Shown in pieces: positions 6,814-38,000 of a DNA stretch of 64,000 nt (the stretch's first letter is position 1; each line of letters opens with the position of its first letter). This DNA is from Octopus sinensis (Eukaryota). The position numbers were made by a program, and so were the translations under genes. The notes under the pieces were generated by a model. The model did no database searches. It worked only from the letters and a program-made list of their open reading frames with translations, and had not been told where the DNA came from. Location of the stretch: contig NC_042997.1 in NCBI RefSeq assembly GCF_006345805.1, positions 208,816,001 through 208,880,000 of the forward strand, written 5' to 3'.

Positions 6814-7739
6814 TGTTACGAAGATAAAATTAACGGGAAAACGCTACGCCCTAGTTCCGTTGGTTGGAGTTGAACCGGCGGGAAGAAAAAGAAATGTGTT
6901 CTTTGTCTTGTCAACGGCAACGGTTAAAATTAATGAGTTTTAGGGACTGATCTTTGATCTCCGCGGTCAGGAAAAGGTTATAAAAATATAAAAATGCCAC
7001 CCTTTAAAACGCGACGACCTGGTGTTATAGTGTCAAACAGCGAAGGGCCGGAAAAGGGTTCAGTTGGGAGAGGCGGCGAGTCGATGCGGATAGCCAGCCA
7101 AGAGATGATGACGGCGAGAGACAGACAGACAGGCACGAGAGACGGTCAGTTAGCGAAATGAATATTTGTAGTAGGAGCTGAAATTGTTGCAGACTCGGAA
7201 CGTGCCGGAAATGTTTTTGATGGATTTGTGTTTTTATTTGTGATTTGAATTATGATGTTTGAAAAAGAGATTCTGTGACATAAACTGTAATCTGTTGAAA
7301 AGAAAACGGGAAAAAAAGAACTTGTAAATGTTTTTAAAAAATCCAGAAAGACTGATGAAAAGGAAAGAAAGAGGAATCTTTGAGAACGAACTCTCTGTGT
7401 AAGAAAAGAAAGAAGAGAAAAGAAAGAAGAGAAAAGAAAGGAGAAAGACTATTTGTTGTGATTCTGTATTGTGTAGCATGTCAACCAATTGATTTGGTTA
7501 ATCGAACAGTTGTGTTACGTTTAAATGTATTTGAAATGTTTTAATTGATTTGGTTAATTATATAAACTGTTAAATGTAAGCAACTGCCTCCGCAGTCTCT
7601 CTCCTTTGTTATCGTTGTGTCGGTTACTGGTTTGCGTTCGCTTCCTATATCCGCTTTCTGTGGTGGATTTCCGTTTGACTGAGCGTAGTCGTCGTCGCCG
7701 ACTTAGGGTCCTGAGTTGAGTTGAGCGACGGTCCTAACA
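6814..7739. mobile_element. Solo LTR (926 bp)
   Basis: TGTTA...TAACA inverted termini, ATATAT on both flanks (inside a TA tract), internal TATA-like box near 6978. Confidence 0.6.
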
Positions 7740-7766
7740 ATATATATATGATTGTATTTATGTATG

Positions 7767-7807
<41 letters not shown>

Positions 7808-9234
7808 TATAATATATATATATATATTATATATATATTATATATATATATGTATTATATATACGGGATATAATCCAAGCTGTGCCCTCTTGAAGCACAA
7901 CTGCACACTTTCTTATTCCAGTACTCTAAAATTGTATGTAGGTGTTATATTTGCGTGACGCATGCATAAGAGCTGAAAACATACTGGAAATCAGTTTTTG
8001 CCGAGTAATAGTATCAAAACAGGAAATTGGAAAAAAAGCTTTGATATTATTTATTCATCACTACACGTGTTTCATTTCCCAGTAGGAATTACAAAGGTAT
8101 GTTACGTATAATGGTAAATAAATGCACCAAAACACTTTTCCAACCTTTTGTTTATTAATCATTCCCTGCAGTAGGGGAATATATTTTTATCATTCACCCA
8201 CGACAGTGGACACATGTACTCTTGCGTTCAACTTCTAGTAACTGGCGAGTGTTTCAAGGTGTCATCACTAATTCAGTTCTCAGCCAAATTGAATGCGGTT
8301 CTTTTTAGCCATGGTGGTCCAGTTTTCAACTACATTTTGAAATCAAATAACTGAAATGTCGTACATTCACGGAAAAGTTGGGTCAAAATTTATGAGGTCA
8401 AAATGGGAGAGTAAGGCGAAAAATTGAGTTTGAATCAAAATATCTGTTATTTTAAAAGAAAAGTAAAAATTAATTTGGTTTCAAAAAGTGTGCTCATTGA
8501 CAAGAATCTTTTAGTGAAAAACCTCATTAAAAAATATTATCTAGGAAAAACGTTGTGATGTAAAAATGGTAAGTAGCCCCAAAGAGTGGCTTTGAATGGA
8601 AATATCTGAGCTATTGTTAAAGAAAACTTGTGTTCAAATGGGAGAGTTCTATAAGGTGTATCTTATGGTGAAAGCCTCGTCAAAAAGAAGTGCTGTGGCT
8701 CTAAGTGACGAAAGAAAAGATGATCATTTTAAAAAATCAATATATTTTTGTCGTTTTAAGATATGTAGCGTTATGAAAGATAGCGTCAGCTTAACTTAAT
8801 GGTACAGAGAGCTTAAATAGAGTTTGAGAAGTTCGAAGTTTGGTACGCTGTAGCAACTTGCTAGGCCATTTTTTCCCCTTTCTAAAGGTATTTAACCAGT
8901 TTTCACAGATATTCTGCGTCTGAAATTTACTTGGGATGAAAAGAATTCTGTAAGAAAAGTCTTATGAGAAAAACCTTATAGAAAAATCGAAGTTGTTGTT
9001 TCAGCGACGGGAAAAGGAGTGAAAAGTTGAACTAATCAAAATACTTCTTTGTCTTTTTAAGTGAAAAATAATATTACTTGAACCCAAATGAAAGGGTTAA
9101 ACGAGACGAATATTTTGGAGAAGACCCTGTCTGAAAATATTAATGTCATTTACTGTTTGTTCTGTACATTTCCTAGTTCAATACTTAAGCATATTCTAGG
9201 ATTTTCATTCTGGTATATATATATAATATATATA

Positions 9235-9580: not shown

Positions 9581-10534
9581 CAGGGTTTGGACAAAATAAT
9601 GGAAACACCTAGCATTATAACATCATAATTTTGAAATATCTATAAAACCATCAAAAGCTTGTTTATTTTTGTTTTGTTTTTTTTATTTATTATTAGCATT
9701 GCTTAATATGTTTTGCTAAAATTACTGTTTCTTTTCAGATATCATCACAAAAAGGTAATTAAAATTCATTAAAATGACAGATCAATCAGACTTTCAAAGA
9801 GGTAAAAATTGTTGGTACTCGTATGGCAGGCGTTAGCGTAACGGAAACAGCCGAAATGTTTGGTGTATCAAGAAGTATTGTCTTGAAAGTAATGACCAGA
9901 AAACCACTACTTTCAAAAACAAACGTTACAAAGCGTTTAGAGTGGAGTAAAAATCTACAGAATTGGTCCCTGGAGCAGTGGAAGAATGTTATTTTCTTGG
10001 ACGGTCATCCTTTACCTTATTTCCGACCACTGGCCGATTATACTTGTGGAAACAACCAAAAAGAGTATTTGAGCGAGACTGTCTTTTTCCAACTGTTAAA
10101 CATGGAGGAGGATCTGTGATGATCTGGGGGACTATATCTTGGAAATCTGCAGGCCCAATGGTTTTCCTTCATAGCAGAATTAATAGTCAAGACTATTTAA
10201 GCATTTTATCTGATCAAATTCATCCTATGGCTGCAGAACTGTTTCCGGAGGGAAACGCAATCTTCAGGATGATCATGCACCAATTCACACAGCTAAAGTC
10301 GTTGCTGAATGGCACGAGAAACATTCTAGTGAAGTTGAACATCTTATCTGGCCACCACAGTCCCCACATCTCAATATTATTGAACATTTATGGTGCATTT
10401 CAGAAAAACGAGTAAAGAGTCAATATCCTCCACCATCATTACTACAAGAACTGGAGACTGTTTTAACTGAAGAATGGACAAAAATTCCTTTGGAAACAAT
10501 TCAAACTTTGTACAAGTCCATACCTTGTAGAATT
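9581..10534 (+). mobile_element. Tc1-like DNA transposon, internally deleted and frameshifted, right TIR missing
   Basis: TA|CAGGGTTTGGACAAAATAATGGAAAC TIR; encodes [20 protein letters not shown], (FQ)DD(N)[19 protein letters not shown] across frames. Confidence 0.88.
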
Positions 10535-11992
10535 AGTATTTCTGACTTGTGGGTTTATGTCGAACACCTGCTGTCGCGTGTAGGACGGATCTGGCTATCA
10601 GCTGAGCACATTTTGAAGATAGTTTTGCCGCTTTCTTTTGGCCGGGAAGGGCAGTCTGTTTTCTTTGCCTGGTAGCCTTAGCGAAGGAGGTTGTGTGATG
10701 GATCAGGCTGAAAGGGCTGAAGATACATACTTTCCTCTTTGGCCAAGCTCTCATTAACTTTTTCAAATTTCACCTGAGAAGAAAAGTGAGGGTGGAGAAA
10801 GAGGTTCCGTCCCCACCCCCAGCAATTTTGTTAAAAGGTGAGTGAATGTTGCAAGAATGGCCCAGGCAAGTGGGCCTACTCTAAGTATGCGCCTGTAGAC
10901 AAAGAGGAGAGGGTGCTTCCCCTGGTGGTCAGGACTGCCGTGGGTTTATGAGCTTTCCACGAGCAGCCCCATGAAGTCTCCCTCTTTTGGGGAATTTTGT
11001 TACTATAATCATTTGTTATTGCCTTGTTTATACATTTTTTATGCAGCCCCAAATTGTATCTGTCCTGTGTTGTCCATAATGCTTTTTTTTATGTAAACCC
11101 GTTGTGGTTAGTAAAGAAAGCAATCACCAAGGTCGACTTTGCCTTTCATCCTTTCGAGGTCGATAAATTAAGAACCAGTAAAACACTGGGGTCGATATAG
11201 TCACCTACTCCCCTCCCCAGATTTCAGGCTTTGTGTCTATAGTAGAAAGTATTATTATTATTATTATTATTATTCGAGAACAGTGCATGTAATCAAAGAG
11301 AAATTATACGAAGCCCACCATGACTCCCCGTCTGATAAAGGTACACCAGGCACATGCACCATAGCCATACGTGCGTGACATAGTGATCTTATATCAAGAT
11401 AAACTTCCCCCTGCCGCTCTCCCCCGCTCTCTCTCTCTCTCTCACTCTCTCTCTGCGTGTAATTACGCACGCATATATACACAGCCAGGTAGTTAAACAG
11501 GTAGACTGACACATACGTTGATAGATAAACAAATAGATAGATAGATAGACAGACAGACAGAAGACCGCCAGGACCTAACAGTATGACATTATGAATAAAC
11601 CACAGTATTATTATTTTGCACGAATTCAGAATTTATCCTTAAAAACCGTGACTGAAAGTTGTTAACTACGACAATGATAAACAATAACAACAATCTACTA
11701 CGTGGTGGTCACTATTCAGATTGCTTAAAATCTACACACGAAGTGTTTAACTTTTGTAAACATCTGTCGCAAAACATCCTGTCGAGTACACCCTCCGCTA
11801 ATATTATTTATTAGTTTTCTTTCTCGCTGATAAACTCGTAAAATATCCGAGAAAATATTAACAGGAAATTATTGAAGAGAAAAAGCAAAATATGTCAAGT
11901 ATTTCGCGATTAAAATGTTTTATACATCTCTTAATGTGGGGAAACTAATTGAACAATAATGGGATTGTCTGCCATCCGCAATGACCACCGCC

Positions 11993-12814: not shown

Positions 12815-13940
12815 CTGGCAGAACTGTTAGCACGCCGGGCAAAATGCGGAGCCGTATTTCGTTTGCCGTTACGTTCCGAGGGTCGATAAATTAAGTACGC
12901 ACTGAGGTCGATATAATCCTTTCGGGGTCGATTAAATAAGTATCAGTTACGCACTGGGGTCGATATAATCGACTTAATCCGTGTCTGTCCATGTTTTTCC
13001 TCTCTGTGTTTAGCCCCTTGTGGGTAGTAAAGAAATAGGTATTTCGTCTGCCGTTACGTTCTGAGTTCAAATTCTGCCGAGGTCGACTTTGCCTTTCATC
13101 CTTTCGGGATCGATTAAATAAGTACCAGTTACGCACTGGGGTCGATATGATCGACTTAATCCGTGTGTCTGTCCTTGTTTGTCCTCTCTGTGTTTAGCCC
13201 CTTGTGGGTAGTAAAGAAATAGGTATTTCGTCTGCCGTTACGTTCTGAGTTCAAATTCTGCCGAGGTCGACTTTGCCTTTCATCCTTTCGGGGTCGATTA
13301 AACAAGTACCAGTTACGCACTGGGGTCGATATGATCGACTTAATCCGTTTGTCAGTCCTTGTTTGTCCCCTCTGTGTTTAGCCCCTTGTGTATTTCGTCT
13401 GCCGCTACATTCTGGGTTCAAATTCCGCCGAGGTCGACTTTGCCTTTCATCCTTTCATCGGTGTTGATAAAAATGGAAACACTGGAGTCGGTGTAATCAA
13501 GTCCCCCTCTCACCAAATTTTAAGCCTTTGTACCAGTATGAAAAAGGGTTATTCTCAAATCACGTGTAGATTGGCTATTCGTTTGTACTCTAGGCCCGAC
13601 GTTTTGAGGGAGGGGTAGCCAGTCGATTAGATCGACTCCAGTACGCAACTGGCACTTAATTTATTGGGCAAAGTCGACCACGACAGAATTTGAACTCAGA
13701 ACATAAAAACGGACGAAATACCTATTTCTTTACTACCCACAAGGGGCTAAACACAGAGGGAAACAAACAAGGACAGACAAACGGATTAAGTCGATTATAT
13801 CGACTCCAGTGCGTAACTGGTACTTATTTTAATCGACACTGAAAGGATGAAAGGCAAAGTCGACCTCGGCGGAGTTTAGACTCAGAACGTAGCGGCAGAC
13901 GAAATACCGCTTAGCATTTCGCCCGGCGTGCAAACGATTC
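12815..13940. mobile_element. Cluster of tRNA-head SINE multimers (plus-strand trimer, minus-strand dimer)
   Basis: Same head (CTGGCAGAA..GTTAGC), B box GTTCAAATTC and core GCCTTTCATCCTTTCGGGGTCGAT as the large array; units joined by GTAAAGAAATAGGTATTTCG. Confidence 0.8.
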
Positions 13941-15399: not shown

Positions 15400-16345
15400 T
15401 CCTGCTGGGCCCTTCAATGATTTTACATGAGCATACCATCCATCACGGTTCCTCATGCATGTTCTTAATTCTCCAACATTTACCATTCCACTGTCCTGAA
15501 GCAAGTTGTCCCCTTAGATTAGACGTTTTCGTCCCCAGTTGATTCTTCCCTCGACTACCATGAGACCAATTGACTCACAGCTTCTTCTGGTGCCTGATGC
15601 ACTGACCAGCAAGTCTCATTCTTCTCAGCTGAATCTTCTCTCTCACTTTGGGCAGATCTTGATAAAGCTGCTTGTTTGTTTGTTGAGCGAAGCGGTCTTC
15701 GTCCCATGTCTGTAGTGGGAGAAGTCCGAAACGTGGTCCTTTGCCATTCGTAATACCCGCACCGCAGAAGAGAAAACAGGTCAACCCCCGACACTGACAG
15801 CATCGACGGATGGATGAATGCGCATCCAGGCTCAGCGGTTATGTAGGAAGTCGGGGACAAGAAACAGGAAGAAAGAGTGAGAGAAAGTTGGAGCGAAAGA
15901 GTACAACAGGGGTCGCCAACACCCCCTGCCGGAGCCTCATGGAGCTGTAGGTGTTTTCGCTCAATAAACACACACAACGCCCGGTCTTGGAATCGAAACC
16001 GCGATCCTCCGACCGCGAGTCCGCTGCCCTAACCACTGGGACATTGCGCCTCCTGATAAAGCTGCTCGTTGGTTAAATGGCTTCTCCATGTAACAACCAG
16101 TGCCAATGTTAATATTTTTGTGTAGCAGCCGTCTATTCATCGAGCTTTATGATAAGGGTTCAAGATTCAGCACCATATAACGAAACTGACTCTATTACGG
16201 AGACAAACAACCTAATGTTCAATTTACGAGTCATCTCAGAACTCCAGATTTTACAGTTTGTGACACACACCCCTAACAAGTGCCGTCTGTACAGCAAAAT
16301 TCTTTTCACTATTTCCATCCAAGCATCAAGGGACTTGAAGTTAGT
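15400..16345 (-). mobile_element. RTE-clade LINE relic, 3' part (RT thumb/C-terminus), itself interrupted by a SINE at about 15680-16053
   Basis: Encodes QLYQDLPKVREKIQLRRMRLAGQCIRH; TGATAAAGCTGCT is duplicated at 15660 and 16054 around the inserted SINE. Confidence 0.75.
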
Positions 16346-19300
16346 GAAGGCGGCGAACTGGCAGAAACGTTAGCGCGCCGAACGAAATGCTTAGCGGTAT
16401 TTCGTCTGCCGCTACGTTCTGGGTTAAAATTCCGCCGAGGTCGACTTTGCCTTTCATCCTTTCGGGTTCGATAAAATTAAGTACCAGTTACGCACTGGGG
16501 TCGATATAATCGACTTAATCTGTTTGTCTGTCCTTGTTTGTCCTCTCTGTGTTTGGCCCCTTGTGGGTAGTAAAGAAAGAGGTATTTCTTCTGCCGTTAC
16601 GTTCTGGGTTCAAATTCCGCCGAGGTCGACTTTGCCTTTCATCCTTTCGGGTTCGATAAAATTAAGTACCAGTTACGCACTGGGGTCGATATAATCGACT
16701 TAATCTGTTTGTCTGTCCTTGTTTGTCCTCTCTGTGTTTGGCCTCTTGTGGGTAGTAAAGAAAGAGGTATTTCGTCTGCCGTTACGTTCTGAGTTCAAAT
16801 TCCGCCGAGGTCGACTTTGCCTTTCATCCTTTCGGGGTCGATAAAATTAAGTACCAGTTACCCACTGGGGTCGATATAATCGACTTAATCTGTTTGTCTG
16901 TCCTTGTTTGTCCTCTCTGTGTTTAGCCCCTTGTGGGTAGTAAAAAAAGAGGTATTTCGTCTGCCGTTACGTTCTGGGTTCAAATTCCGCCGAGGTCGAC
17001 TTTGTCTTTCATCCTTTCGGTGTCGATAAAATTAAGTACCAGTTACGCACTGGGGTCGATATAATCGACTTAATCCTTTGTCTGTCCTTGTTTGTCCTCT
17101 CTGTGTTTGGCCTTGTGGGTAGTAAAGAAATAGTATTCGTCTCTTCTGCCGTTACGTTCTGGGTTCAAATTCCGCCGAGGTCGACTTTGCCTTTGATCCT
17201 TTCGGGTTCGATAAAATTAAGTACCAGTTACGCACTGGGTCGATATAATCTACTTAATCCCTTTGTCTGTCCTTGTTAGTCCTCTCTGTGTTTGGCCCCT
17301 TGTGGGTAGTAAAGAAAGAGGTATTTCGTCTGCCGTTACGTTCTGAGTTCAAATTCCGCCGAGGTCGACTTTGCCTTTCATCCTTTCGGGTTCGATAAAA
17401 TTAAGTACCAGTTACGCACTGGGGTCGATATAATCGACTTAATCCCTTTGTCTGTCCTTGTTTGTCCTCTCTGTGTTTAGCCCCTTGTGGGTAGTAAAGA
17501 AAGAGGTATTTCGTCTGCCGTTACGTTCTGGTACAAATTCCGCCGAGGTCGACTTTGCCTTTCATCCTTTCGGGGACGATAAAATTAAGTACCAGTTACG
17601 CACTGGGGTCGATATAATCTACTTAATCTGTTTGTCTGTCCTTGTTTGTCCTCTCTGTGTTTAGCCCCTTGGGTAGTAAAGAAAGAGGTATTCGTCTTCT
17701 GCCGTTACGTTCTGGTTTCAAATTCCACCGAGGTCGACTTTGCCTTTCATCCTTTCGGGATCGATAAAATTAAGTAGCAGTTACGCACTGGGGTCGATAT
17801 AATCGACTTAATCCCTTTGTCTGTCCTGTTTGTCCTCTCTGTGTTTGGCCCCTTGTGGGTAGTAAAGAAAGAGGTATTTCGTCTGCCGTTACGTTCTGGG
17901 TTCAAATTCCGCCGAGGTCGACTGCCTTTCATCCTTTCGGGTTCGATAAAATTAAGTACCAGTTACGCACTGCGGTCGATATAATCGACTTAATCCGTTT
18001 GTTGTCTTGTTTCGTCTCTCTGTATTTGGCCCCTGTGGGTAGTAAAGAAATAGGTATTTCGTCTGCCGTTACGTTCTGGGTTCAAATTCCGCCGAGGTCG
18101 ACTTGCCTTTCATCCTTTCGGGGTCGATAAAATTAAGTACCAGTACGCACTGGGGTCGATATAATCGACTTAATCCCTTGTCTGTCCTTGTTTGTCCTCT
18201 CTGTGTTGGCCTCTTGTGGGTAGTAAAGAAAGAGGTATTTCGTCTGCCGTTGCGTTCTGGGTTCAAATTCCGCCGAGGTCGACTTTGCCTTTCATCCTTT
18301 CGGGGTCGATAAAATTAAGTACCAGTTACGCACTGGGTCGATATAATCGACTTAATCTGTTTGTCTGTCCTTGTTTGTCCTCTCTGTGTTTAGCCCCTTG
18401 TGGGTAGTAAAGAAAGAGGTATTTCGTCTGCCGTTACGTTCTGGGTTCAAATTCCGCCGAGGTCGACTCTGCCTTTCATCCTTTCGGGGTCGATAAAATT
18501 AAGTACCAGTTACGCACTGGGGTCGATATAATCGACTTAATCTGTTTGTCTGTCCTTGTTTGTCCTCTCTGTGTTTAGCCCCTTGTGGGTAGTAAAGAAA
18601 GAGGTATTTCTTCTGCCGTTACGTTCAGTGGGTTCAAATTCCGCCGAGGTCGACTTTGCCTTTCATCCTTTCGGGGTCGATAAAATTAAGTACCAGTTAC
18701 GCACTGGTGGTCGATATAATCGACTTAATCCCTTTGTCTGTCCTTGTTAGTCCTCTCTGTGTTGGCCCCTTGTGGGTAGTAAAGAAAGAGGTATTCCGTC
18801 TGCCGTTACGTTCTGGGTTCAAATTCCGCCGAGGTCGACTTTGCCTTTCATCCTTTCGGGTTCGATAAAATTAAGTACCAGTTACGCACTGGGGTCGATA
18901 TAATCGACTTAATCCCTTTGTCTGTCCTTGTTAGTCCTCTCTGTGTTTGGCCCCTTGTGGGTAGTAAAGAAAGAGGTATTTCGTCTGCCCTTACGTTCTG
19001 GTTTCAAATTCCGCCGAGGTCGACTTTGCCTTTCGTCCTTTCGGGGTCGATAACATTAAGTACCAGTTACGCACTGGGGTCGATATAATCTACTTAATCT
19101 GTTTGTCTGTCCTTGTTTGTCCTCTCTGTGTTTAGCCCCTTGTGGGTAGTAAAGAAAGAGGTATTTCGTCTGCCGTTACGTTCTGAGTTCAAATTCCACC
19201 GAGGTCGACTTTGCCTTTCATCCTTTCGGGTTCGATAAAATTAAGTACCAGTTACGCACTGGGGTCGATATAATCGACTTAATCCCTTTGTCTGTCCTTG

Positions 19301-22300
19301 TTAGTCCTCTCTGTGTTTAGCCCCTTGTGGGTAGTAAAGAAAGAGGTATTTCGTCTGCCGTTACGTTCTGGGTACAAATTCCGCCGAGGTCGACTTTGCC
19401 TTTCATCCTTTCGGGGACGATAAAATTAAGTACCAGTTACGCACTGGGGTCGATATAATCTACTTAATCTGTTTGTCTGTCCTTGTTTGTCCTCTCTGTG
19501 TTTAGCCCCTTGTGGGTAGTAAAGAAAGAGGTATTTCGTCTGCCGTTACGTTCTGGTTTCAAATTCCACCAAGGTCGACTTTGCCTGTCATCCTTTCGGG
19601 GTCGATAAAATTAAGTACCAGTTACGCACTGGGGTCGATATAATCGACTTAATCCCTTTGTCTGTCCTTGTTTGTCCTCTCTGTGTTTGGCCCTTTGTGG
19701 GTAGTAAAGAAAGAGGTATTTCGTCTGCCGTTACGTTCTGGGTTCAAATTCCGCCGAGGTCGACTTTGCCTTTCATCCTTTCGGGATCGATAAAATTAAG
19801 TAGCAGTTACGCACTGCGGTCGATATAATCGACTTAATCCGTTTGTCTGTCCTTGTTTCTCCTCTCTGTATTTGGCCCCTTGTGGGTAGTAAAGAAATAG
19901 GTATTTCGTCTGCCGTTACGTTCTGGGTTCAAATTCCGACGAGGTCGACTTTGCCTTTCATCCTTTCGGGTTCGATAAAATTAAGTACCAGTTACGCACT
20001 GGGGTCGATATAATCGACTTAATCCCTTTGTCTGTCCTTGTTTGTCCTCTCTGTGTTTGGCCTCTTGTATGTAGTAAAGAAAGAGGTATTTCGTCTGCCG
20101 TTGCGTTCTGGGTTCAAATTCCGCCGAGGTCGACTTTGCCTTTCATCCTTTCGGGGTCGATAAAATTAAGTACCAGTTACGCACTGGGGTCGATATAATC
20201 GACTTAATTTGTTTGTCTGTCCTTGTTTGTCCTCTCTGTGTTTAGCCCCTTGTGGGTAGTAAAGAAAAGGTATTTCTTCTGCCGTTACGTTCAAGGTTCA
20301 AATTCCGCCGAGGTCGACTTTGCCTTTCATCCTTCGGGGTCGATAAAATTAAGTACCAGTTACGCACTGGTGTCGATATAATCGACTTAATCCCTTTGTC
20401 TGTCCTTGTTATCCTCTCTGTGTTTGCCCCTGTGGGTAGTAAGAAAGAGGTATTCCGTCTGCCGTTACGTTCTGGGTTCAAATTCCGCCGAGGTCGACTT
20501 GCCTTTCATCCTTTCGGGTTCGATAAAATTAAGTACCAGTTACGCACTGGGGTCGATATAATCGACTTAATCCCTTGTCTGTCCTTGTTAGTCCTCTCTG
20601 TTTGGCCCCTTGTGGGTAGTAAAGAAAGAGGTATTTCGTCTGCCCTTACGTTCTGGTTTCAAATTCCGCCGAGGTCGACTTTGCCTTTCGTCCTTTCGGG
20701 GTCGATAAAATTAAGTACCAGTTACGCACTGGGGTCGATATAATCTACTTAATCTGTTTGTCTGTCCTTGTTTTCTCTCTGTGTTTAGCCCCTTGTGGGT
20801 AGTAAAGAAAGAGGTATTTCGTCTGCCGTTACGTTCTGAGTTCAAATTCCACCGAGGTCGACTTTGCCTTTCATCCTTTCGGGTTCGATAAAATTAAGTA
20901 CCAGTTACGCACTGGGGTCGATATAATCGACTTAATCCCTTTGTCTGTCCTTGTTAGTCCTCTCTGTGTTTAGCCCCTTGTGGGTAGTAAAGAAAGAGGT
21001 ATTTCGTCTGCCGTTACGTTCTGGGTACAAATTCGCCGAGGTCGACTTTGCCTTTCATCCTTTCGGGGACGATAAAATTAAGTACCAGTTACGCACTGGG
21101 GTCGATATAATCTACTTAATCTGTTTGTCTGTCCTTGTTTGTCCTCTCTGTGTTTAGCCCCTTGGGTAGTAGTAAAGAAAGAGGTATTTCGTCTGCCGTT
21201 ACGTTCTGGTTTCAAATTCCACCAAGGTCGACTTTGCCTGTCATCCTTTCGGGGTCGATAAAATTAAGTACCAGTTACGCACTGGGGTCGATATAATCGA
21301 CTTAATCCCGTTGTCTGTCCTTGTTTGTCCTCTCTGTGTTTGGCCCTTTGTGGGTAGTAAAGAAAGAGGTATTTCGTCTGCCGTTACGTTCTGGGTCAAA
21401 TTCCGCCGAGGTCGACTTTGCCTTTCATCCTTTCGGGATCGATAAAATTAAGTAGCAGTTACGCACTGCGGTCGATATAATCGACTTAATCCGTTTGTCT
21501 GTCCTTGTTTCTCCTCTCTGTATTTGGCCCCTTGTGGGTAGTAAAGAAATAGGTATTTCGTCCTGCCGTTACGTTCTGGGTTCAAATTCCGACGAGTCGA
21601 CTTTGCCTTTCATCCTTTCGGGTTCGATAAAATTAAGTACCAGTTACGCACTGGGGTCGATATAATCGACTTATCCCTTTGTCTGTCCTTGTTTGTCCTC
21701 TCTGTGTTTGGCCTCTTGTATGTAGTAAAGAAAGAGGTATTTCGTCTGCCGTTGCGTTCTGGTTCAAATTCCGCCGAGGTCGACTTTGCCTTTCATCCTT
21801 TCGGGGTCGATAAAATTAAGTACCAGTTACGCACTGGGGTCGATATAATCGACTTAATTTGTTTGTGTGTCCTTGTTTTCCTCTCTCTCTGTGTTTAGCC
21901 CCTTGTGGGTAGTAAAGAATAGGTATTTCTTCTGCCGTTACGTTCAAGGTCAAAATTCCGCCGCCGAGGTCGACTTTGCCTTTCATCCTTTGGGGTCGAT
22001 AAAATTAAGTACCAGTTACGCACTGGTGTCGATATAATCGACTTAATCCCTTTGTCTGTCCTTGTTAGTCCTCTCTGTTTGTTTGGCCCCTTGTGGTAGT
22101 AAAGAAAGTGGTATTTCGTCTGCCGTTACGTTCTGGGTTCAAATTCCGCCGAGGTCGAATTTGCCTTTCATCCTTTCGGTTCGATAAAATAAGTACCAGT
22201 TACGCACTGGCGTCGATATAATCGACTTAATCCCTTTGTCTGTCCTTGTTAGTCCTCTCTGTGTTTGGCCCCTTGTGGGTAGTAAAGAAAGAGGTATTTC

Positions 22301-24876
22301 GTCTGCCGCTACGTTCTGGGTTCAAATTCCGCCGAGGTCGACTTTGCCTTTCATCCTTTCGGGTTCGATAAAATTAAGTACCAGTTACCCACCGGGGTCG
22401 ATATAATCGACTTAATCTGTTTGTCTGTCCTTGTTTGTCCTCTCTGTGTTTAGCCCCTTGTGGGTAGTAAAGAAAGAGGTATTTCTTCTGCCATTACGTT
22501 CTGGGTTCAAGTTCCGCCGAGGTCGACTTTGCCTTTCATCCTTTCGGGTTCGATAAAATTAAGTACCAGTTACGCACTGGGGTCGATATAATCGACTTAA
22601 TCCCTTTGTCTGTCCTTGTTTGTCCTTCTGTGTTGGCCCTTTGTGGGTATAAAAGAAAGAGGTATTTCGTCTGCCGTTACGTTCTGGGTTCCAATTTCCG
22701 CCGAGGTCGACTTTGCCTTTCATCCTTTCGGGATCGATAAAATTAAGTAGCAGTTACGCACTGCGGTCGATATAATCGACTTAATCCGTTTGTCTGTCCT
22801 TGTTTCTCCTCTCTGTATTTGGCCCCTTGTGGGTAGTAAAGAAATAGGTATTTCGTCTGCCGTTACGTTCTGGGTTCAAATTCCGCCGAGGTCGACTTTG
22901 CCTTTCATCCTTTCGGGGTCGATAAAATTAAGTACCAGTTACGCACTGGGGTCGATATAATCGACTTAATCCCTTTGTCTGTCCTTGTTTGTCCTCTCTG
23001 TGTTTGGCCTCTTGTATGTAGTAAAGAAAGAGGTATTTCGTCTGCCGTTGCGTTCTGGGTTCAAATTCCGCCGAGGTCGACTTTGCCTTTCATCCTTTCG
23101 GGGTCGATAAAATTAAGTACCAGTTACGCACTGGGGTCGATATAATCGACTTAATCTGTTTGTCTGTCCTTGTTTGTCCTCTCTGTGTTTAGCCCCTTGT
23201 GGGTAGTAAAGAAATAGGTATTTCTTCTGCCGTTACGTTCAAGGTTCAAATTCCGCCGAGGTCGACTTTGCCTTTCATCCTTTCGGGGTCGATAAAATTA
23301 AGTACCAGTTACGCACTGGTGTCGATATAATCGACTTAATCCCTTTGTCTGTCCTTGTTAGTCCTCTCTGTGTTTGGCCCCTTGTGGGTAGTAAAGAAAG
23401 TGGTATTTCGTCTGCCGTTACGTTCTGGGTTCAAATTCCGCCGAGGTCGAATTTGCCTTTCATCCTTTCGGGTTCGATAAAATTAAGTACCAGTTACGCA
23501 CTGGCGTCGATATACTTAATAATCCTTTGTCTGTCCTTGTTAGTCCTCTCTGTGTTTGGCCCCTTGTGGGTAGTAAAGAAAGAGGTATTTCGTCTGCCGC
23601 TACGTTCTGGGTTCAAATTCCGCCGAGGTCGACTTTGCCTTTCATCTTTCGGGTTCGATAAAATTAAGTACCAGTTACCCACCGGGGTCGATATAATCGA
23701 CTTAATCTGTTTGTCTGTCCTTGTTTGTCCTCTCTGTGTTTAGCCCCTTGTGGTAGTAAAGAAAGAGGTATTTTTCTGCCATTACGTTCTGGGTTCAAGT
23801 TCCGCCGAGGTCGACTTGCCTTTCATCCTTTCGGGTTCGATAAAATTAAGTACCATTACGCACTGCGGTCGATATAATCGACTTAATCTGTTTGTCTGTC
23901 CTTGTTTGTCCTCTCTGTGTTTAGCCCCTTGTGGGTAGTAAAGAAAGAGGTATTTCGTCTGCCGTTACGTTCTGGTTTCAAATTCCACCGAGGTCGACTT
24001 TGCCTTTCATCCTTTCGGGTTCGATAAAATTAAGTACCAGTTACGCACTGGGGTCGATATAATCGACTTAATCCCTTTGTCTGTCCTTGTTTGTCCTCTC
24101 TGTGTTTGGCCCCTTGTGGGTAGTAAAGAAAGAGGTATTTCGTCTGCCCTTACGTTCTGGGTTCAAATTCCGCCGAGGTCGACTTTGCCTTTCATCCTTT
24201 CGGGGTCGATAAAATTAAGTACCAGTTACGCACTGGAGTCGATATAATCGACTTAATCCCTTTGTCTGTCCTTGTTTGTCCTCTCTGTGTTTGGCCCCTT
24301 GTGGGTAGTAAAGAAATAGGTATTTCGCCTGCCGTTACGTTCTGGGTTCAAATTCCGCCGAGGTCGACTTTGCCTTTCATCCTTTCGGGGTCGATAAAAT
24401 TAAGTACCAGTTACGCACTGGTGTCGATATAATCGACTTAATCCCTTTGTCTGTCCTTGTTAGTCCTCTCTGTGTTTAGCCCCTTGTGGGTAGTAAAGAA
24501 AGTGGTATTTCGTCTGCCGTTACGTTCTGGGTTCAAATTCCGCCGAGGTCGAATTTGCCTTTCATCCTTTCGGGTTCGATAAAATTAAGTACCAGTTACG
24601 CACTGGCGTCGATATAATCGACTTAATCCGTTTGTCTGTCCTTGTTTGTCCTCTCTGTGTTTAGTCCCTTGTGGGTAGTAAAGAAAGAGGTATTTCGTCT
24701 GCCGTTACGTTCTGGGTTCAAATTCCACCGAGGTCGACTTTGCCTTTGATCCTTTCGGGTTCGATAAAATTAAGTACCAGTTACGCACTGGGGTCGATAT
24801 AATCGACTTAATCCCTTTGTCTGTCCTTGTTTGTCCTCTCTGTGTTTGGCCCCTTGTGGGTAATAAAGAAAGAGGT
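16346..24876 (+). repeat. SINE-derived tandem array: one tRNA-like head plus 46 x ~185-bp units, flanked by a 13-bp TSD
   Basis: Units start GGTATTTCGTCTGCCG at 16397, 16581, 16766 ... 24689 (46 counted); ACTTGAAGTTAGT at 16333-16345 and 24877-24889. Confidence 0.95.
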
Positions 24877-25870
24877 ACTTGAAGTTAGTAACTTCCTTAA
24901 GTTCTCATCCGTTTCTCGCACTGAGGTGATTTGGTTGCTCGGTGTCTTCATTGAAGACCTTATTAGTTTTATCTGAGTTACAGTACAGGCCAACCTTTGC
25001 AGCTTCAACTTCCAGTCTGTTGAGCACTTCCTCTGCCCGATGTATCTCTTCAGAGAGAAGAGCAATGTCGTCTGCAACATCTAGATCTGTAAGTATTTAT
25101 TTTTGGTGCAACTCGTCTACTTCTCCGTTTTTTCCAACTTAAACCCCTATTATTCCTCTTTTCCTTCTAAGGTCTTGCGCACCACATAGCCTAGCACTGG
25201 AACAAAGGGATACTGTGCAAGTATATCCCCTTTAAGTATTCCTGCTGTTATTTTTTCTCTATCATATGTTTATAGTTCTTGCTTTTGTATGTTCGCAAAG
25301 CTTCGCTATGGCATAGAGAAGTTTTAGAGGTATATCATACTCTTTTAGGATTGTGAGCATCTTGCCTCTGTGAATGGAATCAAAAGCCTTCTTGAAATCA
25401 CCATATAGGATGACAGTTTTTCTATTGTGTGCTTCGACTTCTTCAATTAACCTTTTCGAAGTTAGAATATGTGTTGCTGCGGATCGACGAGGTCAGAAAT
25501 CATTCTGATTTTGTCCTTGATGTTTATCGATACTAGGTTGTAATAAGATAATTTTGTTTGTGATTTTGGCCACTGTTGAAGATAGTTCTTGGTATCACGG
25601 AGATTTCCTGATTTTGGAATAGGGAGCAGATCCAACTCTGATAACAGCTTTGGCTTCATCTTCTCTTTCAATAGTTTGTTTGCAAAGTATAGCCCAATTT
25701 CGTCGAAATTACATCGTTTCAAAACTTCGAGTGCAATGTTACCTGAACCCAAAGATTTACCTTCCTTGATTGATTTCTTCGCGAACTGAAGTTCTTCATC
25801 TTTAAATTCGGCACCATTAATGTCAATGTTATTCAGTCCCTTGAGAAGATCTGCTTCATTTATTATCAAT
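24877..25870 (-). mobile_element. RTE-clade LINE relic, 5' part (RT core)
   Basis: Broken frames: LLPIPKSGNLRDTKNY, QNDFRP, DFKKAFDSIHR, GILKGD, DVADDIALL, VTNFK; joins across the array to 16345. Confidence 0.85.
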
Positions 25871-25875
25871 CATTA

Positions 25876-27086
25876 AGGCGGCGAGCTGGCAGAAACATTA
25901 GCACGCTGGGTGACATGCCTAGCGGTATTTCGTCTGCAGCTACGTTCTGAGTTCAAATTCCGCCGAGGTCAACTTTACCTTTCATCCTTTCGGGGTCGAT
26001 AAATTAAGTACCAATTACGCACTGGGGTCGATATAATCGACTTAATCCGTTTGTCTGTCCTTGTTTGTCCTCTCTGTGTTTAGCCCCTTGTGGGTAGTAA
26101 AGAAATAGGTATTTCGTCTGCCGTCACGTTCTGAGTTCAAATTTCTCCGAGGTCGACTTTGCCTTTCATCCTTTCGGGATCGATAAATTAAGTACCAGTT
26201 GTGTACTGGGATTGATCTAATTGACTGGGGCCCTTGTGCCTAGAGTAGAAAAGGACATTTAAGGCGGCGAACTGGCAGAATCGTTAGCTGGACGAAATAC
26301 TTAGCGGTATTTCACCCGTCGCTACGTTCTGAGTTCAAATTCCGCCGGGGTCGACTTTACTTTTCATTGTTTCGGGGTCGATAAATTAAATGTACCAGTT
26401 GCGTACTGGGGTCGATCTAATCAAATGGCCCGCTTCACCAAAATTTAGGGCCTTGTGCTTAGAGTAGACAAGAAGATTTATTTTTGTTAGCAAGTGCCAG
26501 TTCTTTTGGTCAAACTATCGTATCTCCAGCTGCTTCAGATGCCAAGATATCAAAATTTATCAAAGTGTAGTACATCATAGCTCCCGCCAGTATAGCTCTA
26601 CGGGTCACAGAAGCACGCAGGGCACTCCACTGCGGCAGGCCGCTTAATCAGACGTATAAGTATTTGTGAACCCTTTTGGTCATGAATGACCATGGGATTG
26701 CACCTAGAAAGTTACCCTCCCAGGCACAAGTCCGGGCAAGATGGTTTATGGAAGACCAGCAGTCGCCCATGCATACCAGCTTCCCCTCTCCACACCACTG
26801 ATGTTATCCAAAGGAATGGCAAAGGGGCCAACACAGCTTGGCACCTGTGACGTCGCAACTCATTTCTACAGCTGAGTGAACTGGAGCAACATGGAATAAA
26901 GTATCTTGCTCAAGGACAAAACACGCAGCCCGGTCCGGAAATCGAACTCACAACCTCACGATCGTAAGCTCGACGCCCTAATCACTGAGCCATGCGCCTT
27001 CACAGACGTATAAGTTTTAATATTTTTGAATTTTTTTAAATATTTAGACGTATAAGTTTAAATATTAAAAAATTCAAAAATATACA

Positions 27087-28540: not shown

Positions 28541-30049
28541 AAAAATTTCTGCCCTGGGTGAAGCGGTACACTTTCCAACGCCAAATCTGCCATCGTTTTC
28601 TTCAGTCGTACCGTGACCACAATCCACTTGCGAAGTGAGCTCACGGACGATCACTCGTCTGTCACGGACGATCACTCGTCTATCAGTGTCAATCATTTTA
28701 ACCGTTTGTCTTCTATTCTTTTGTTCTTTTACCTGTTTCAGTCATTAGACTGCGGCCATGCTGGGGCACCGCCTTGAAGAGTTTTAGTGAAACGAACAAA
28801 TCCCATTACTTTATTCTATCGGACCCTTTTGCCAAAGCGATAAGTTATAATGGCTTAAACACACCAACACCGGTTCCCAAGCGCTGGGGTGAGGGTGGGG
28901 CGTAAGCACACACACACACTTTCAGTTTCAATCTACGGAATCCACTCACAAGGGTTTGATCGGCCCGAGGCTATAGTAGAAGACACTTGTTCATTGTGCC
29001 TTGCACTAGGACTGAACTCGGAACCAAGTGGTTGGGAAACAAACTTCTTACCACACAGCCACGCCTGCACTTTCCAAACTTCTTACCACACAGCCACGCC
29101 TGCACTTTCCAACGTTACGTTCTGAGTTCAAATTCCGCCGAGGTCGACTTTACCTTTCATCCTTTCGGGGTCGATAAATTAAGTACCAGTTACGCACTGG
29201 CGTCGATCTAATCGACTTAATCCCTTTGTCTGTCCTTCTTTGTCCCCTCTGTGTGTAGCTCCTTGTGGGCAATAAAGAAATTAAAACTTTAGCACGCCGG
29301 GCGAAATCCTTAGCAGTATTTCGTCTGTCGCTACGTTCTGAGTTCAAATTCAGCCGAGGTTGACTTTGCCTTTCATGCTTTCAGGGTTGATTAAATAAGT
29401 ACCAGTTACGCACTGGGGTCGATATAATCGACTTAATACCTTTGTCTGTCCTTGTTTGTACTCTCTGTGTTTAGCCCCTTGTGGGTAGTAAAGAAATAGG
29501 TATTTCGTCTGCCGCTACGTTCTGAGTTCAAATTCCGCCGAGGTCGACTTTGCCTTTCATCCTTTCGGGGTCAATTAAAAAAGTACCAGTTACGAACTGG
29601 GGTCGATGTAATCGACTTAATCCGTTTGTCTGTCCTTGTTTGTCCTCTCTGGCACATTGCTCTTATCAGTGGAGTCATCTCTGGAAACAAGCTGCAGCCT
29701 TCTGTGGACGTTGGGCAGCCATCACTTCTCCTTCGTCCAGAGATTTTCGAGAGGAAAATTGACTCTGCCAAATCAGTCGGTTTGGAACTGACCTGTGTCA
29801 GTTAATGAAAGAACTTCTGCATTACTTTCAGTCTAACCCTTGTGCGTACCTGCATATGTATACACACACACACATACACACATATACATACATACCTGAC
29901 ACATACCGTTCTGTGTGTACTTGAATCTATATATGAACGCGCGTGTGCGTGTGAGTAAGCGCGCTTATACGTGTGTGTGTGTGTGTGTGCGTGCGTATTT
30001 ACATGTCTAATTAAATGTATAGTTCTCTGACCTGAAACCTGCAATCTTT

Positions 30050-33050: not shown

Positions 33051-33099
<49 letters not shown>

Positions 33100-33100
<1 letters not shown>

Positions 33101-33441
33101 ACTCTTGTGTCAGGGGAGAGTTACCCTCTTTTGGTTCCTTATAATTTAACACACTCACCGGTAAAATTTCCACTGATTTCCTTCTTTATTTCTCTAAAAT
33201 TTTCGATGCAAAACTATTGAAAAGGTTGCAAGACGCAGCAATTTTTTTTTAAATAAAGAAGGAAATGAATAGAAATTTTACCGGTGAATTTGTTACATAA
33301 TAAGGCACAAAAAGAAAATGACTCTCCCCAGACACAACAGAATATGCTTCAACACACAAACTCACATAAAGAATCTTGCAACCAAATCCCAAAACGAATA
33401 CATACATATATATATTTATTTATGTACATATTTATACATAC

Positions 33442-33506
<65 letters not shown>

Positions 33507-33865
33507 CTCTTGTGTCAGGGGAGAGTTACCCTCTTTTGGTTCCTTATAATTTAACACACTCACCGGTAAAATTTCCACTGATTTCCTTCTTTATTTCTCT
33601 AAAATTTTCGATGCAAAACTATTGAAAAGGTTGCAAGACGCAGCAATTTTTTTTTAAATAAAGAAGGAAATGAATAGAAATTTTACCGGTGAATTTGTTA
33701 CATAATAAGGCACAAAAAGAAAATGACTCTCCCCAGACACAACAGAATATGCTTCAACACACAAACTCACATAAAGAATCTTGCAAACCAAATCCCAAAA
33801 CGAAATACATACATATATATATTTATTTATGTACATATTTATACATACATATATATTTATATATG

Positions 33866-33913
<48 letters not shown>

Positions 33914-34378
33914 ATATATATACCGGAGTAAACACATAAATGTGAAACAAGGTGGAAAAAAGAGTACTCAAATACCAGGGGTAGAGTAATATGCTTTATT
34001 TAAAAGCAGCAGAAAATTCAACAAAACCTGTTACTCGTTCCCGTTCGTCGGACAGTTTTTCTAGCAAAAACTGTCCGACGAACGGGAACGTGAAACTCAG
34101 AGTAACACATTTTGTTGAATTTTCTGCTGCTTTTAAATAAAGCATATATATATATATATATACATTGTGGGAAGTACTGTTTCGGCGTGGTCGTGTTCTG
34201 GCCTTACCTTCGAAACACGCATTGAGTCGAAACAGGGGCAGCTGAAGAAGGGGAATTTTCCTTGTACTGTTTGTCCTGTACTCTGTTTTTTCGTTGTTGA
34301 AAAGAGTCCGTTTCCTTGTTTGATTTTATGTTTTCGTTTCTCGTTGTGTTCTACGTTTATTTGTGGTGTCCTGTACTC

Positions 34379-35030: not shown

Positions 35031-38000
35031 TAGAGCTGTGATCCCCAACCTGTGGTCCGCGGACCCCTGATTGTGAAAGTTGTATCAAACTGCTTTCATC
35101 GTGACCGAGCAAACCTATTAAAAACAACAACATTCCAACCCAGATAATTTTGCTGGTTAAATGTACCTTGGATAACACCATCCAATGGACCTTTTGATGA
35201 CACTCGACTAACAAGTAAGTGGGATTTGGTTGTTATTTCTAGCAGATTAAGAGACTTCGTAGACGCTTCCTCTTTGACATAAATTAATTATTCACCTTTT
35301 ACTCGTTTCACTCATTAGACTGCGGCCATGCTGGAGGCACTGCATCGAAGTCAAACAACTCGACCCAGTGCTTTATTCTTTTATTCTTTTACCTCTTTCA
35401 GTCATTTGACTGTGGCCATGCTGGAGCACCGCCTTTAGTCGAACAAATCGACCCCAGGACTTATCCTATCGGTCTCTTTTGCCGAAACGTAAAGTCATGG
35501 GGGCGTAAACACACCAACATCGGTTGTCTCATAGACACATACACACACATATACGACAGGCTTCTTTCAGTTTCCATCTACTAAATTCACTCACAAGGCT
35601 TTGGTCGGCCCAAGGCTGTAGTAGAAGACACTTGCCCAAGATGCCACGCAGTGGGACTGAACCCGGAAACATGTGGTTGATAAGCAAGCTACTTACCACA
35701 GAGCCACTCCTGCGGCTATATAGTTTAACTCCTGGATTTTTACACCTATTAGACTGGGTTCTTTTTTTTTTTTTTGTGACCGGGAGTTAAACTGTATATT
35801 ATTTTCTACTCCAGGCAAAGCCCGAAATTTTGGGGGAGTAGAGCATTTGATTAGATCGACTCCAGTACGCAACTGGTACATTTAATTTATCGACCCCGAA
35901 AGGATGAAGGGCAAAGTCGACCTCAGCGGAATTTGAACTCAGAACGTAGCGGCAGACGAAATACCTCTTTCTTTACTACCCACAAGGGGCTAAACACAGA
36001 GAGGACAAACTAGGACAGACAAACGGATTAAGTCGATTATATTGACCCCAGTGCGTAACTGGTACTTATTTAATCGACCCCGAAAGGATGAAAGGTAAAG
36101 TCGACCTCGGCGGAATTTGAACTCAGAACGTAGCGGCAGTCGAAATATCGCTAAGCACTTCGCCTGGCGTGCTAACCATTCTGCCAGCTCGCCGCCTGTA
36201 ATATTAATGCAAGTATCTCGGAAACAAAACGAACAAAAGGTATAAAGAGTTGCCTCCCCTGGACCATAGTCGCTTTTAGCTTTCGTAACATTGAAACTGG
36301 AAGAAAGATTAAATATGAGGCTGACCTGCAAATTAGCGCCCCTCCTTCTTTGTGTCGTCATAATTTTCTGAGAAATGCATACTTTTTAATGAAATTTTGC
36401 AGCAGTGTGCTTTCGAGAGTGTAGTTTACAATTTCGTTGATAAAATGTTTTCGCCTTGCCCTGACATGACGTGATAGGGGCAACGGCTGTTTGCTTCATA
36501 TAAACATTGGCATTCGTTTCTAATGTTCCACGAAAACGTGCCTGGCCATCAGGTAATATTACCTTGCTTACAAACCAGTATGGATTTGGTGACAGGAAGG
36601 GATTCTGGCCATAGAACATCTGCCTCAACGAATTCCATCTGACTCATGCAAGCAAGGAAAAGGGGACATTGAAATAAATTGTCTTGCTCAAGGACACAAC
36701 TTACTGCTTGGAATGGGACTTGAACCCCTGATCTAACCATTGTTAAAATCATCATCATCATCATCACCGTTTAACGTCCGCTTTCCATGCTGGCATGGGT
36801 TGGACAGTTTGACTGAAAACGGGTAAGCTGGGGGGGGGCTGCACCAGGTTATGATCTGATTTGGCAAGGTTTCTACGGCTGGATGCTCTTCCTAACGCCA
36901 ACCATTCCGAGAACGTTGTGGATGCCTTTTACGTACCACCAGCATCAGTGCCATTGACCTGACGCCAGCATCAGCCATGACTACGGTCTCACTTGGCTTG
37001 ACAGGTCAACACAAGCGCAGTATATCGCCAAGGGCCTTGGTCACAAGTCACTGCTTCCATGAGGCCCAACGCTCGAATGGTACTTTTTGCATGCCATCAG
37101 CCACACCTATGATTAACTGGTATGATTAAAGGCGGCGAGCTGGCAGAAACGTTAGCATGCCGGGCGAAATGCTTTGTGGTATTTCGCCCTCCGCTGCGTT
37201 CTGAGTTCAAATTCCGCTGAGGTAGACTTTGCCTTTCATCCTTTCGGGGCCGATTAAACAAGTACCAGTTACGCACTGGGGTCGATGTAATCGACTTAAT
37301 CCGTTTGTCTGTCCTTGTTTGTCCCCTCTGTGTTTAGCCCCTTGTGGGTAGTAAAGAAATAGGTATCAGCCACGTCAACCTTTAAACTAGGACATACAAA
37401 AACACACAAGCATTCAGAAATGTGCCACCAGTCAATAACCAGCAATCAAGCGCTGCCATACTCTGAGCGTCTTTCTTCCCTGAGCATGGATAAATTAAAG
37501 CTCTGACATCTAGTTACCAACTTGTCAGATATCCATCCACAATATTATCCGCCATCTCTCCAACAAAAAGCTTAGACAACTTTTTGATTTTCATATGTCT
37601 AACACTCACGAACATGCTTACAAAATCGAAACACAACACAACACCCATGACTTCTGGAAATATTTCGTCATGCTCAGAATTGTTGAAGCGTGGAATAAAC
37701 TACCCACATCCTTCAACACTCCCATGCTTCTCAAAGACAGCTGTGTAAAAGAAGTGCCGATCTCTAACTGGGGAGGGAACCTATGGAAGAGGTTGACTCA
37801 GGAAGACATGGGACAAAGTGTTGAAGCATGATCTTCAAACGTTGAGCCTCCCTGGGGCAATGACTGGTGACTGAGACCTTTGGCGATGTGCTGTGCTTGA
37901 GGGGACCCATCAAGCCAAGTGCTCCCATGCTGGTGACACGTAAAGAACACCTTTTGAATGTTGGGCCTCACAGAGAAAAAGTGGCTGAGTTCCTTTCGAG

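What the first reader, a model, noticed from the sequence alone, without database searches (positions are those of the whole stretch)
16333..24889. An 8.5-kb, 46-mer SINE concatemer bounded by a single 13-bp target-site duplication
Seen: one tRNA-like head (16346-16396) followed by 46 head-less ~185-bp bodies. The identical 13-mer ACTTGAAGTTAGT flanks the whole block. The two flanks rejoin into one RTE-clade RT frame, split at the VTNFK(Y)LG motif. Established: TSDs of this length mark LINE-mediated target-primed insertion. Inference: a satellite born from one retroposition event, either inserted as a multimer (template re-use or rolling-circle RT of a circular body RNA) or expanded in situ from a dimer. 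It is a rare, boundary-resolved snapshot of SINE-to-satellite conversion.
Basis: partly seen in the sequence, partly recalled or inferred. Interest (0 to 1): 0.75.

Follow-up and report, generated by a model that had tools for sequence, protein, structure and literature searches.

The report
SINE grown into satellite in place
A short jumping element sits here as 46 tandem copies between two matching target-site repeats; it likely landed as only one to three copies and likely grew in place by repeated block duplication, and such multimers are common in this genome rather than rare.

Summary
The anatomy is real: one head, 46 units of 179-187 bp, a 13-bp perfect flanking repeat (likely 16-17 bp with one mismatch, starting GGTA), inside a decayed LINE reverse-transcriptase fragment. 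A one-step multimer or rolling-circle origin of all 46 units is not supported: 44 of 66 substitutions are shared between units, blocks of 9, 7 and 10 units are duplicated (0.8, 1.3, 2.2% apart), and the haplotype tested is private to this locus. It is not rare: the tail-to-body joint occurs 25,049 times, 16 of 39 sampled full-length copies are multimers, and other TSD-bounded 5- to 27-mers exist. One subfamily inserts at GGTA-led targets, including a fixed site in its own head (89 nested junctions, control 0). Here the body is bracketed by GGTATTT/GGTACTT and the terminal unit shares the array's private alleles, so the seed was likely one copy or a same-lineage short multimer; its size is unresolved. 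Both junctions are present in a relative about 1% diverged; array length could not be checked. Similar arrays are published (blood clam, squamates), and this scan noted the self-targeting family before on other DNA of this genome.

The parts
16061..16345 (-). Downstream piece of the interrupted, decayed LINE ORF (host of the insertion)
   Evidence: Collinear with and abutting the right flank in paralogues L203, L207, L208; translation
16333..16345 (+). Left target-site duplication, 13 bp perfect; extends to 16329/16330 with one mismatch at 16332
16346..16395 (+). SINE 5' head with A-box-like motif (16359-16373); present once
   Evidence: a 28-bp head motif occurs 14,993 times exactly in the genome
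16396..24873 (+). 46 tandem units of 179-187 bp (B-box-like motif, central body, tail); mean pairwise difference 4.7%
17320..20448 (+). Older block duplication: units 6-12 (17320-18602) resemble units 16-22 (19160-20448), 2.2% apart
18790..22109 (+). Youngest block duplication: units 14-22 (18790-20448) repeated as units 23-31 (20449-22109), 0.84% apart
   Evidence: lag 9, permutation P 0.0012
21368..23948 (+). Block duplication: units 28-34 (21368-22660) repeated as units 35-41 (22661-23948), 1.3% apart
24689..24873 (+). Terminal unit 46; carries 4 of 4 array-private alleles, including G184 next to the end
24874..24889 (+). Right target-site duplication (13 bp perfect from 24877); starts GGTACTT, 6 of 7 letters like the unit start GGTATTT at 16396
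   Evidence: sequence
24877..25861 (-). Upstream piece of the decayed LINE reverse-transcriptase ORF
   Evidence: Pfam RVT_1 E 2.4e-12; paralogues at 70-79% identity

Best explanation
A tRNA-type SINE was likely inserted by LINE-driven target-primed reverse transcription into an old LINE fragment as a short element of one to three units, and most of the 46 units were likely added afterwards in place by repeated duplication of multi-unit blocks with exchange between units. Shown: the flanking duplication, the split LINE, the nested block structure (10, then 7, then 9 units by rising similarity), the private haplotype, and the family's habit of landing at GGTA-led targets, including position 51 of its own head. 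Inferred: the RNA 3' end (ending about GGUAUUU) pairs with the target and sets that preference; because this target began GGTACTT, the inserted body was bracketed by a 6-of-7 direct repeat, which would let a first duplication arise in place and give exactly the family joint; alternatively the seed was a same-lineage dimer or trimer copied from a composite source. Unequal sister exchange or slippage is the likely engine of growth. The array is likely neutral selfish DNA.
For: Shared variants 44 of 66; star model rejected, lag-9 periodicity P 0.0012, four-gamete violations in 15 of 21 site pairs; six identical unit pairs at lags 7, 9, 10; a 71-bp array haplotype matches 6 places, all in this array; the 46 units group with one outside monomer at support 96/86 against 76 other rows; units within an array are closer than between arrays in 20 of 20 other loci with more than 4 units. 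TSDs in 42 of 71 head-bearing elements, 10-22 bp, control 0 of 351; 18 of 25 T173 elements followed by GG have a TSD starting there. Nested head-TSD-head junctions: 89, control 0; 16 of 24 examined show the full nested structure. Terminal tail differs from the internal tail in 10 of 11 arrays not followed by GG but in only 4 of 8 followed by GG; a private allele in the last 6 bp is shared by terminal and internal units in 2 of 19, this array and L048, both followed by GGT.
Against: The seed size is not shown: unit 46 has A175, unique in the array and common in the family, which fits a composite seed. The array is polymorphic for family alleles at positions 27, 72, 127, 160, 184, which could reflect conversion from other copies or polishing errors. 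Monophyly of the 46 units alone has weak support (23/85). No long reads were available; units 22-41 carry more gaps (35 in 20 units, against 20 in the other 26), so the youngest block could be an assembly duplication. The RNA end and the partner LINE were not identified. First and second units of small multimers share more rare alleles than unrelated pairs (0.74 against 0.11, 34 loci), which independent nested insertion alone does not predict.
Confidence: 0.8

Rival explanations
1. RNA-level seed: a head-less body RNA, cut at the hairpin loop and circularised or re-used by template jumping, gave a few identical units in one insertion; later growth was still in place.
For: All units share one lineage including the terminal tail; the unit starts at the 3' edge of a predicted hairpin loop; some small multimers share rare alleles.
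Against: Fold not better than shuffles (z -1.15); no Rfam match and no hammerhead core on either strand; dimers often join different subfamilies (discordant at position 17 in 11 of 29 and at 173 in 10 of 29); no excess of stand-alone head-less copies starting at position 51; nested TSD-bearing insertions explain the joint without a circle.
Confidence: 0.12
2. The whole or most of the array was retroposed as one long read-through transcript of a pre-existing array elsewhere.
For: Units avoid runs of four T (three in 8.5 kb, first at 20771), so Pol III could read through; TSD-bounded multimers are common (15 of 30).
Against: The 71-bp haplotype has no match outside this array; none of 155 units of other small elements carries G27 with G184; near-identical blocks are as young as or younger than the split from a relative that already has both junctions.
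Confidence: 0.04
3. The array is largely an assembly expansion of 1-3 units.
For: No long reads were checked; units 22-41 are gap-rich.
Against: 40 distinct units by substitutions, 29 clusters at two or fewer differences, with consistent multi-site haplotypes at several depths of divergence; random read errors do not give that.
Confidence: 0.03
4. Target choice comes from a sequence-specific endonuclease of a partner LINE (Tx1-like), not from RNA pairing; growth in place as above.
For: Precedent: SINEU and Tx1-Mar share a target (PMC4494074, abstract seen); an earlier unreviewed note reports a Tx1 lineage inserting in a SINE head in this genome.
Against: Match to GGTATTTCG among GG-led targets falls 1.0, 1.0, 0.97, 0.91, 0.62, 0.66, 0.5, 0.12 by position (32 ends), no conserved letters are evident by eye upstream of the cut, and subfamilies with different tails use different target starts; no LINE tail was seen before position 51 in my sample.
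Confidence: 0.25

Closest known systems
TSD1-(SINE)n-TSD1 arrays of the blood clam Scapharca broughtonii (PMC11481361; passages of section 15 and Discussion seen)
   Same: One full head, repeated head-truncated units, one pair of TSDs around the whole block; mollusc tRNA-type SINE.
   Different: There 4-15 units, 64 elements, internal units also lack the 3' tail; here up to 46 units, internal units keep the full tail, tens of thousands of joints at one fixed position, and nested self-insertion is visible.
SINE-derived satellites (sSat) of squamate reptiles (PMC10702118; first of five text parts and passages seen)
   Same: Tandem units shorter than the parent SINE, a few to hundreds per locus, longer arrays more uniform; unequal recombination and insertion into the same locus proposed.
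   Different: That paper's text has no occurrence of 'TSD' or 'target site'; here boundaries and block order are resolved and a fixed self-target explains the joint.
Metazoan non-LTR retrozymes (PMC7761336; passages seen)
   Different: Retrozymes carry a hammerhead ribozyme and make circular RNA; no ribozyme found here, and there is a Pol III-type head.
RTE-mobilised SINEs whose TSD start follows the 3' repeat (PMC6007223; abstract and section 18 seen)
   Same: First letters of the TSD match the RNA 3' end; base pairing proposed to aid priming.
   Different: There animal microhomology is one or two bases; here 4-7 bases that equal a site inside the element itself.
SINEU / Tx1-Mar of crocodilians (PMC4494074; abstract seen)
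   Same: A SINE that prefers a site inside another repeat.
   Different: Target is a Mariner element, not the SINE itself; no tandem growth is mentioned in the abstract.

Membership tests
tRNA-derived SINE | [quoted passage not shown] | tested here: met
   A-box-like at 16359, B-box-like at 16423 (degenerate) and 16608; box consensus recalled; ARAGORN and Rfam find no tRNA
tRNA-derived SINE | Short, non-coding, interspersed at high copy number | tested here: met
   146 elements in 800 kb of sampled stretches; 14,993 exact head motifs
tRNA-derived SINE | Variable-length TSDs | tested here: met
   42 of 71 elements, 10-22 bp; control 0 of 351
tRNA-derived SINE | 3' tail shared with a partner LINE | not tested
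   Partner not searched for
tRNA-derived SINE | Transcribed by RNA polymerase III | not testable with these tools
   Needs RNA data or an assay
SINE-derived satellite (sSat) | At least four middle monomers that are part of a SINE | tested here: met
   44 middle units, each positions 51-235 of the 235-bp element; criterion from PMC10702118
SINE-derived satellite (sSat) | Locus-wise homogenisation | tested here: met
   4.7% within against 10.0% to units of small elements
SINE-derived satellite (sSat) | Association with subtelomeric heterochromatin | tested here: inconclusive
   Window lies about 4.5 Mb from the end of a 213-Mb contig; one locus, chromatin not testable
TSD1-(SINE)n-TSD1 array (blood-clam type) | Single TSD pair around one full head plus head-truncated units | tested here: met
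TSD1-(SINE)n-TSD1 array (blood-clam type) | Internal units lack the 3' tail | tested here: not met
   Every internal unit keeps the full tail
Non-LTR retrozyme | Hammerhead ribozyme in each unit | tested here: not met
   No Rfam match to E 5 over 16300-17000; no CTGANGA on either strand
Non-LTR retrozyme | Abundant circular RNA of unit length | not testable with these tools
   No raw RNA reads were laid
MetaSINE/MESC superfamily | 66-bp Meta domain after the tRNA region | tested here: inconclusive
   Resemblance is recalled only; two motifs not found in 2 supplementary files, one file not searchable; figure alignments not held
RTE-clade LINE (host fragment) | Non-LTR reverse-transcriptase domain | tested here: met
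   RVT_1 E 2.4e-12
RTE-clade LINE (host fragment) | Placement in the RTE clade by RT phylogeny | not tested
   Motif resemblance recalled; no reference set available

The most novel reading that the evidence does not exclude
This SINE is RNA-guided to a copy of its own internal motif: its 3' end pairs with GGTA(T/C)TT, so it homes into its own head and, wherever else it lands at such a site, leaves its body bracketed by a short direct repeat that seeds tandem growth. One family thus makes satellite nuclei by design at on the order of 100,000 joints, each bounded by a TSD and datable, and this 46-mer is a monomer-seeded end member.
Probability: 0.35. Interest if true: 0.65.

Novelty: new variant of a known kind. 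Interest (0 to 1): 0.4.

Why it matters
The step from dispersed retroposon to satellite is usually inferred after the boundaries are gone. Here the start (TSD), the order of block duplications and thousands of younger stages (nested insertions, dimers, 5- to 40-mers) coexist in one genome, so birth rate, seed type and growth of satellites can be measured.

Tried and rejected
One-step rolling circle or template re-use for 46 units: rejected. Retrozyme: no ribozyme. Empty allele: short 34-bp pieces at 24873-24906 with LINE-like loose ends occur in 4 of 4 runs, but beside the filled junction and with a diverged upstream sequence, so they are paralogous LINE copies. X8 and X10 gave no contig across the left flank; a hole proves nothing. 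No RNA holder listed; no statement on expression. Array length in other individuals: only short-read contigs were offered, so untested. Genome-wide count of arrays by length: not obtained; the DNA search scored 40 of 30,223 candidates, so 'longest array' holds only among those examined. Age asymmetry in small multimers: last unit more diverged when short-type (0.086 against 0.051, 15 of 19, P 0.028; subfamily differences may inflate this), not when long-type (12 of 20, P 0.16). PDB search with the LINE fragment: 0 hits. Pfam on 56 of 105 stop-free stretches of the window showed only transposon fragments and weak hits, no host gene. A published name for this SINE or a report of its multimers was not found in searches (open-access library only; Repbase, Dfam and subscription papers not covered); PMC13282606 (first of three parts and passages) has no occurrence of 'multimer', 'concatemer' or 'nested'. 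PMC4758252, PMC4824008 and PMC12054243 (passages) added nothing decisive. Look-ups in earlier findings by sequence and by words returned nothing.
Full report
Observation. The 13-mer ACTTGAAGTTAGT lies at 16333 and 24877 and nowhere else in the window. Between the copies are a 50-bp head (16346-16395) and 46 units of 179-187 bp ending at 24873. The flanks are two halves of one decayed LINE: the right half, read with X at its many stops, matches Pfam RVT_1 (E 2.4e-12), and both halves abut in three uninterrupted paralogues. RTE clade is a recalled resemblance, untested. The genome is 2.72 Gb; the host is likely an octopus (recalled likeness of the repeat and earlier notes; not tested). Two refinements matter. 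The B-box-like motif is inside the repeated unit, only the A-box-like motif is in the head. And the duplication likely starts three or four bases earlier, at (A)GGTA, with one mismatch in the left copy: paralogues have T at that place, and the family's TSDs centre on 14-16 bp.

The units were not made in one step. Of 66 distinct substitutions, 44 are shared by two or more units. With the same 247 events placed independently, 2000 simulations gave means of 196, 154 and 104 distinct changes for CpG weighting of 1, 10 and 30, and never fewer than 86. Units 14-22 recur as 23-31 (0.84% apart), 28-34 as 35-41 (1.3%), 6-12 as 16-22 (2.2%); the lag-9 signal has P 0.0012 in 5000 permutations, and 15 of 21 site pairs show all four gametes, as exchange between units would give. 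There are 40 distinct units and six identical pairs at lags 7, 9 and 10. A 71-bp array haplotype matches 6 places in the genome, all inside this array. In a tree of 123 units the 46 group with one outside monomer at 96/86; alone their support is only 23/85. This is the pattern of growth in place with local homogenisation, and it also argues against an assembly expansion of 1-3 units, though the youngest block lies in a gap-rich stretch and could be a false duplication.

It is not rare. A 32-letter tail-to-body joint occurs 25,049 times, control 0. In 80 stretches of 10 kb taken at round coordinates, 146 elements held 28 joints at position 51, about 35 per Mb or roughly 95,000 genome-wide by extrapolation; 16 of 39 head-bearing long-type copies were dimers or trimers. 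Other long arrays include a 27-mer with a 14-bp TSD (L046), a 9-mer (L056) and an 8-mer (L065) with TSDs, a head-less 42-mer (L047), and 5- and 7-mers with TSDs seen by eye. In all 20 other loci with more than four units, units are closer within than between loci. This array is the longest of those I examined, but the search scored 40 of 30,223 candidates.

Why the joint is always the same. The unit upstream of a position-51 joint has T173 in 74 of 75 cases. Terminal T173 units are followed by GG in 32 of 54 cases, and the match to GGTATTTCG decays after seven letters; 18 of 25 head-bearing ones have a TSD that starts there (this set includes loci picked by their joints and is not a random sample). 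So this subfamily lands at GGTA-led targets, and the commonest such target is its own position 51. The predicted nested form, old head plus TSD plus new head, occurs 89 times, control 0; 16 of 24 loci examined show the full structure, and in at least five (L168, L183, L187, L190, L194) host-specific letters appear in both TSD copies. The self-targeting reading came from earlier unreviewed notes of this scan; these calls are my own test of it. Seamless head-body-body copies would follow from transcription of such composites or recombination between the two heads (inferred). Dimers often join different subfamilies and differ within nearly as much as between loci (0.098 against 0.105). Against a purely independent origin, first and second units share more rare alleles than unrelated pairs (0.74 against 0.11), so some small multimers are local duplicates or have been converted.

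The seed of this array. Its target began GGTACTT, six of seven letters like the unit start GGTATTT, so the inserted body was bracketed by a short direct repeat. Unit 46 carries 4 of 4 array-private alleles, including G184 next to the end. Among 19 arrays with a long-type last unit, the terminal tail differs from the internal tail in 10 of 11 not followed by GG, as composite seeds predict, and in 4 of 8 followed by GG; only this array and L048, both followed by GGT, share a private allele in the last six bases. That favours a single copy duplicated in place, or a same-lineage short multimer; unit 46's A175 points the other way. I put monomer seeding and a short composite seed at about 0.4 each and an RNA-level seed at about 0.12. 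The unit starts at the 3' edge of a predicted hairpin loop, but the fold is not better than shuffles (z -1.15), and no ribozyme was found.

Age. The 3' junction is on one contig in 4 of 4 runs (X1, X3, X6, X10; three studies, three organism labels), of which X6 and X10 differ from the window by 12 and 11 letters per kb; X1 and X3 are near-identical and may not be independent. The 5' junction is on one contig in X2 (possible source) and X6, 2 of 4 runs. The contigs reach only about 22-33 letters into the element, mostly short of the tool's 31-letter rule for bridging, but they read SINE letters where an empty allele would read LINE. The insertion therefore likely predates a split of about 1%, and the 9-unit duplication (0.84%) is about as young as that split. 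Array length elsewhere could not be measured.

Comparison. The structure is close to the TSD1-(SINE)n-TSD1 arrays of the blood clam and meets the tested criteria for a SINE-derived satellite; it fails the retrozyme test. Pairing of the RNA 3' end with the target is a published idea for RTE-type elements. What I did not find in the eight paper searches is a SINE that homes into a fixed site of its own head and so seeds arrays; repeat databases, subscription papers and one unsearchable supplement may hold it.

Verdict. Observation confirmed; interpretation partly supported. A real, well-bounded SINE-derived array that likely grew in place, one long example of a family-wide process that this scan has noted before. 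New variant of a known kind; interest 0.4.

Noticed in passing
L158 (G000:C26:5000001-5010000), minus strand about 7728-8900: A 7-unit array of the same SINE with an A-B higher-order repeat; the B units begin GGTATTTAGGGTTAGGGTTT, i.e. TTAGGG-like letters at the joint, as if telomere repeats were added at a break there before expansion.
   Followed up: partly
L171, L195, G000:C3430:1376-2206: Tandem arrays of a 65-67-bp unit made of the SINE head plus the duplicated target, up to about 13 copies: a second kind of satellite nucleus from nested insertion.
   Followed up: partly
L088, L108, L121, L180, L188; window 29284: A second joint class: tails ending AAGAAA join at head position 17-23 (AGAAACGTTAGC); 4 of 6 such donors have C173.
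   Followed up: partly
window 12815-13472, 25875-26226, 29113-29651, 35849-36197 (-), 53984-54337 (-): Further dimers and trimers of the family in the window, several ending in a short-type unit with a different tail.
   Followed up: partly
L047 and L049, 3' ends: Two long arrays (42 and 13 units) stop at the same body position and continue into nearly the same flank, suggesting haplotype copies, a segmental duplicate or a shared insertion of another element. L055 and L060 are likewise near-duplicates.
   Followed up: no
window 4962-5954 (-): 331-aa stop-free stretch with a GIY-YIG match (E 1.3e-4), likely Penelope-like.
   Followed up: no
window 9778-10672 (+) and 49108-49467 (-): Tc1/mariner-type transposase fragments (DDE_3, E 1e-9 and 2e-8).
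   Followed up: no
window 33065-33918: A 405-bp tandem duplication, 97% matched, bounded by (TA)n.
   Followed up: no
window 25581: Runs X6 and X10 carry a 16-bp insertion relative to the window in the LINE flank, so the window's lineage likely has a deletion there.
   Followed up: no
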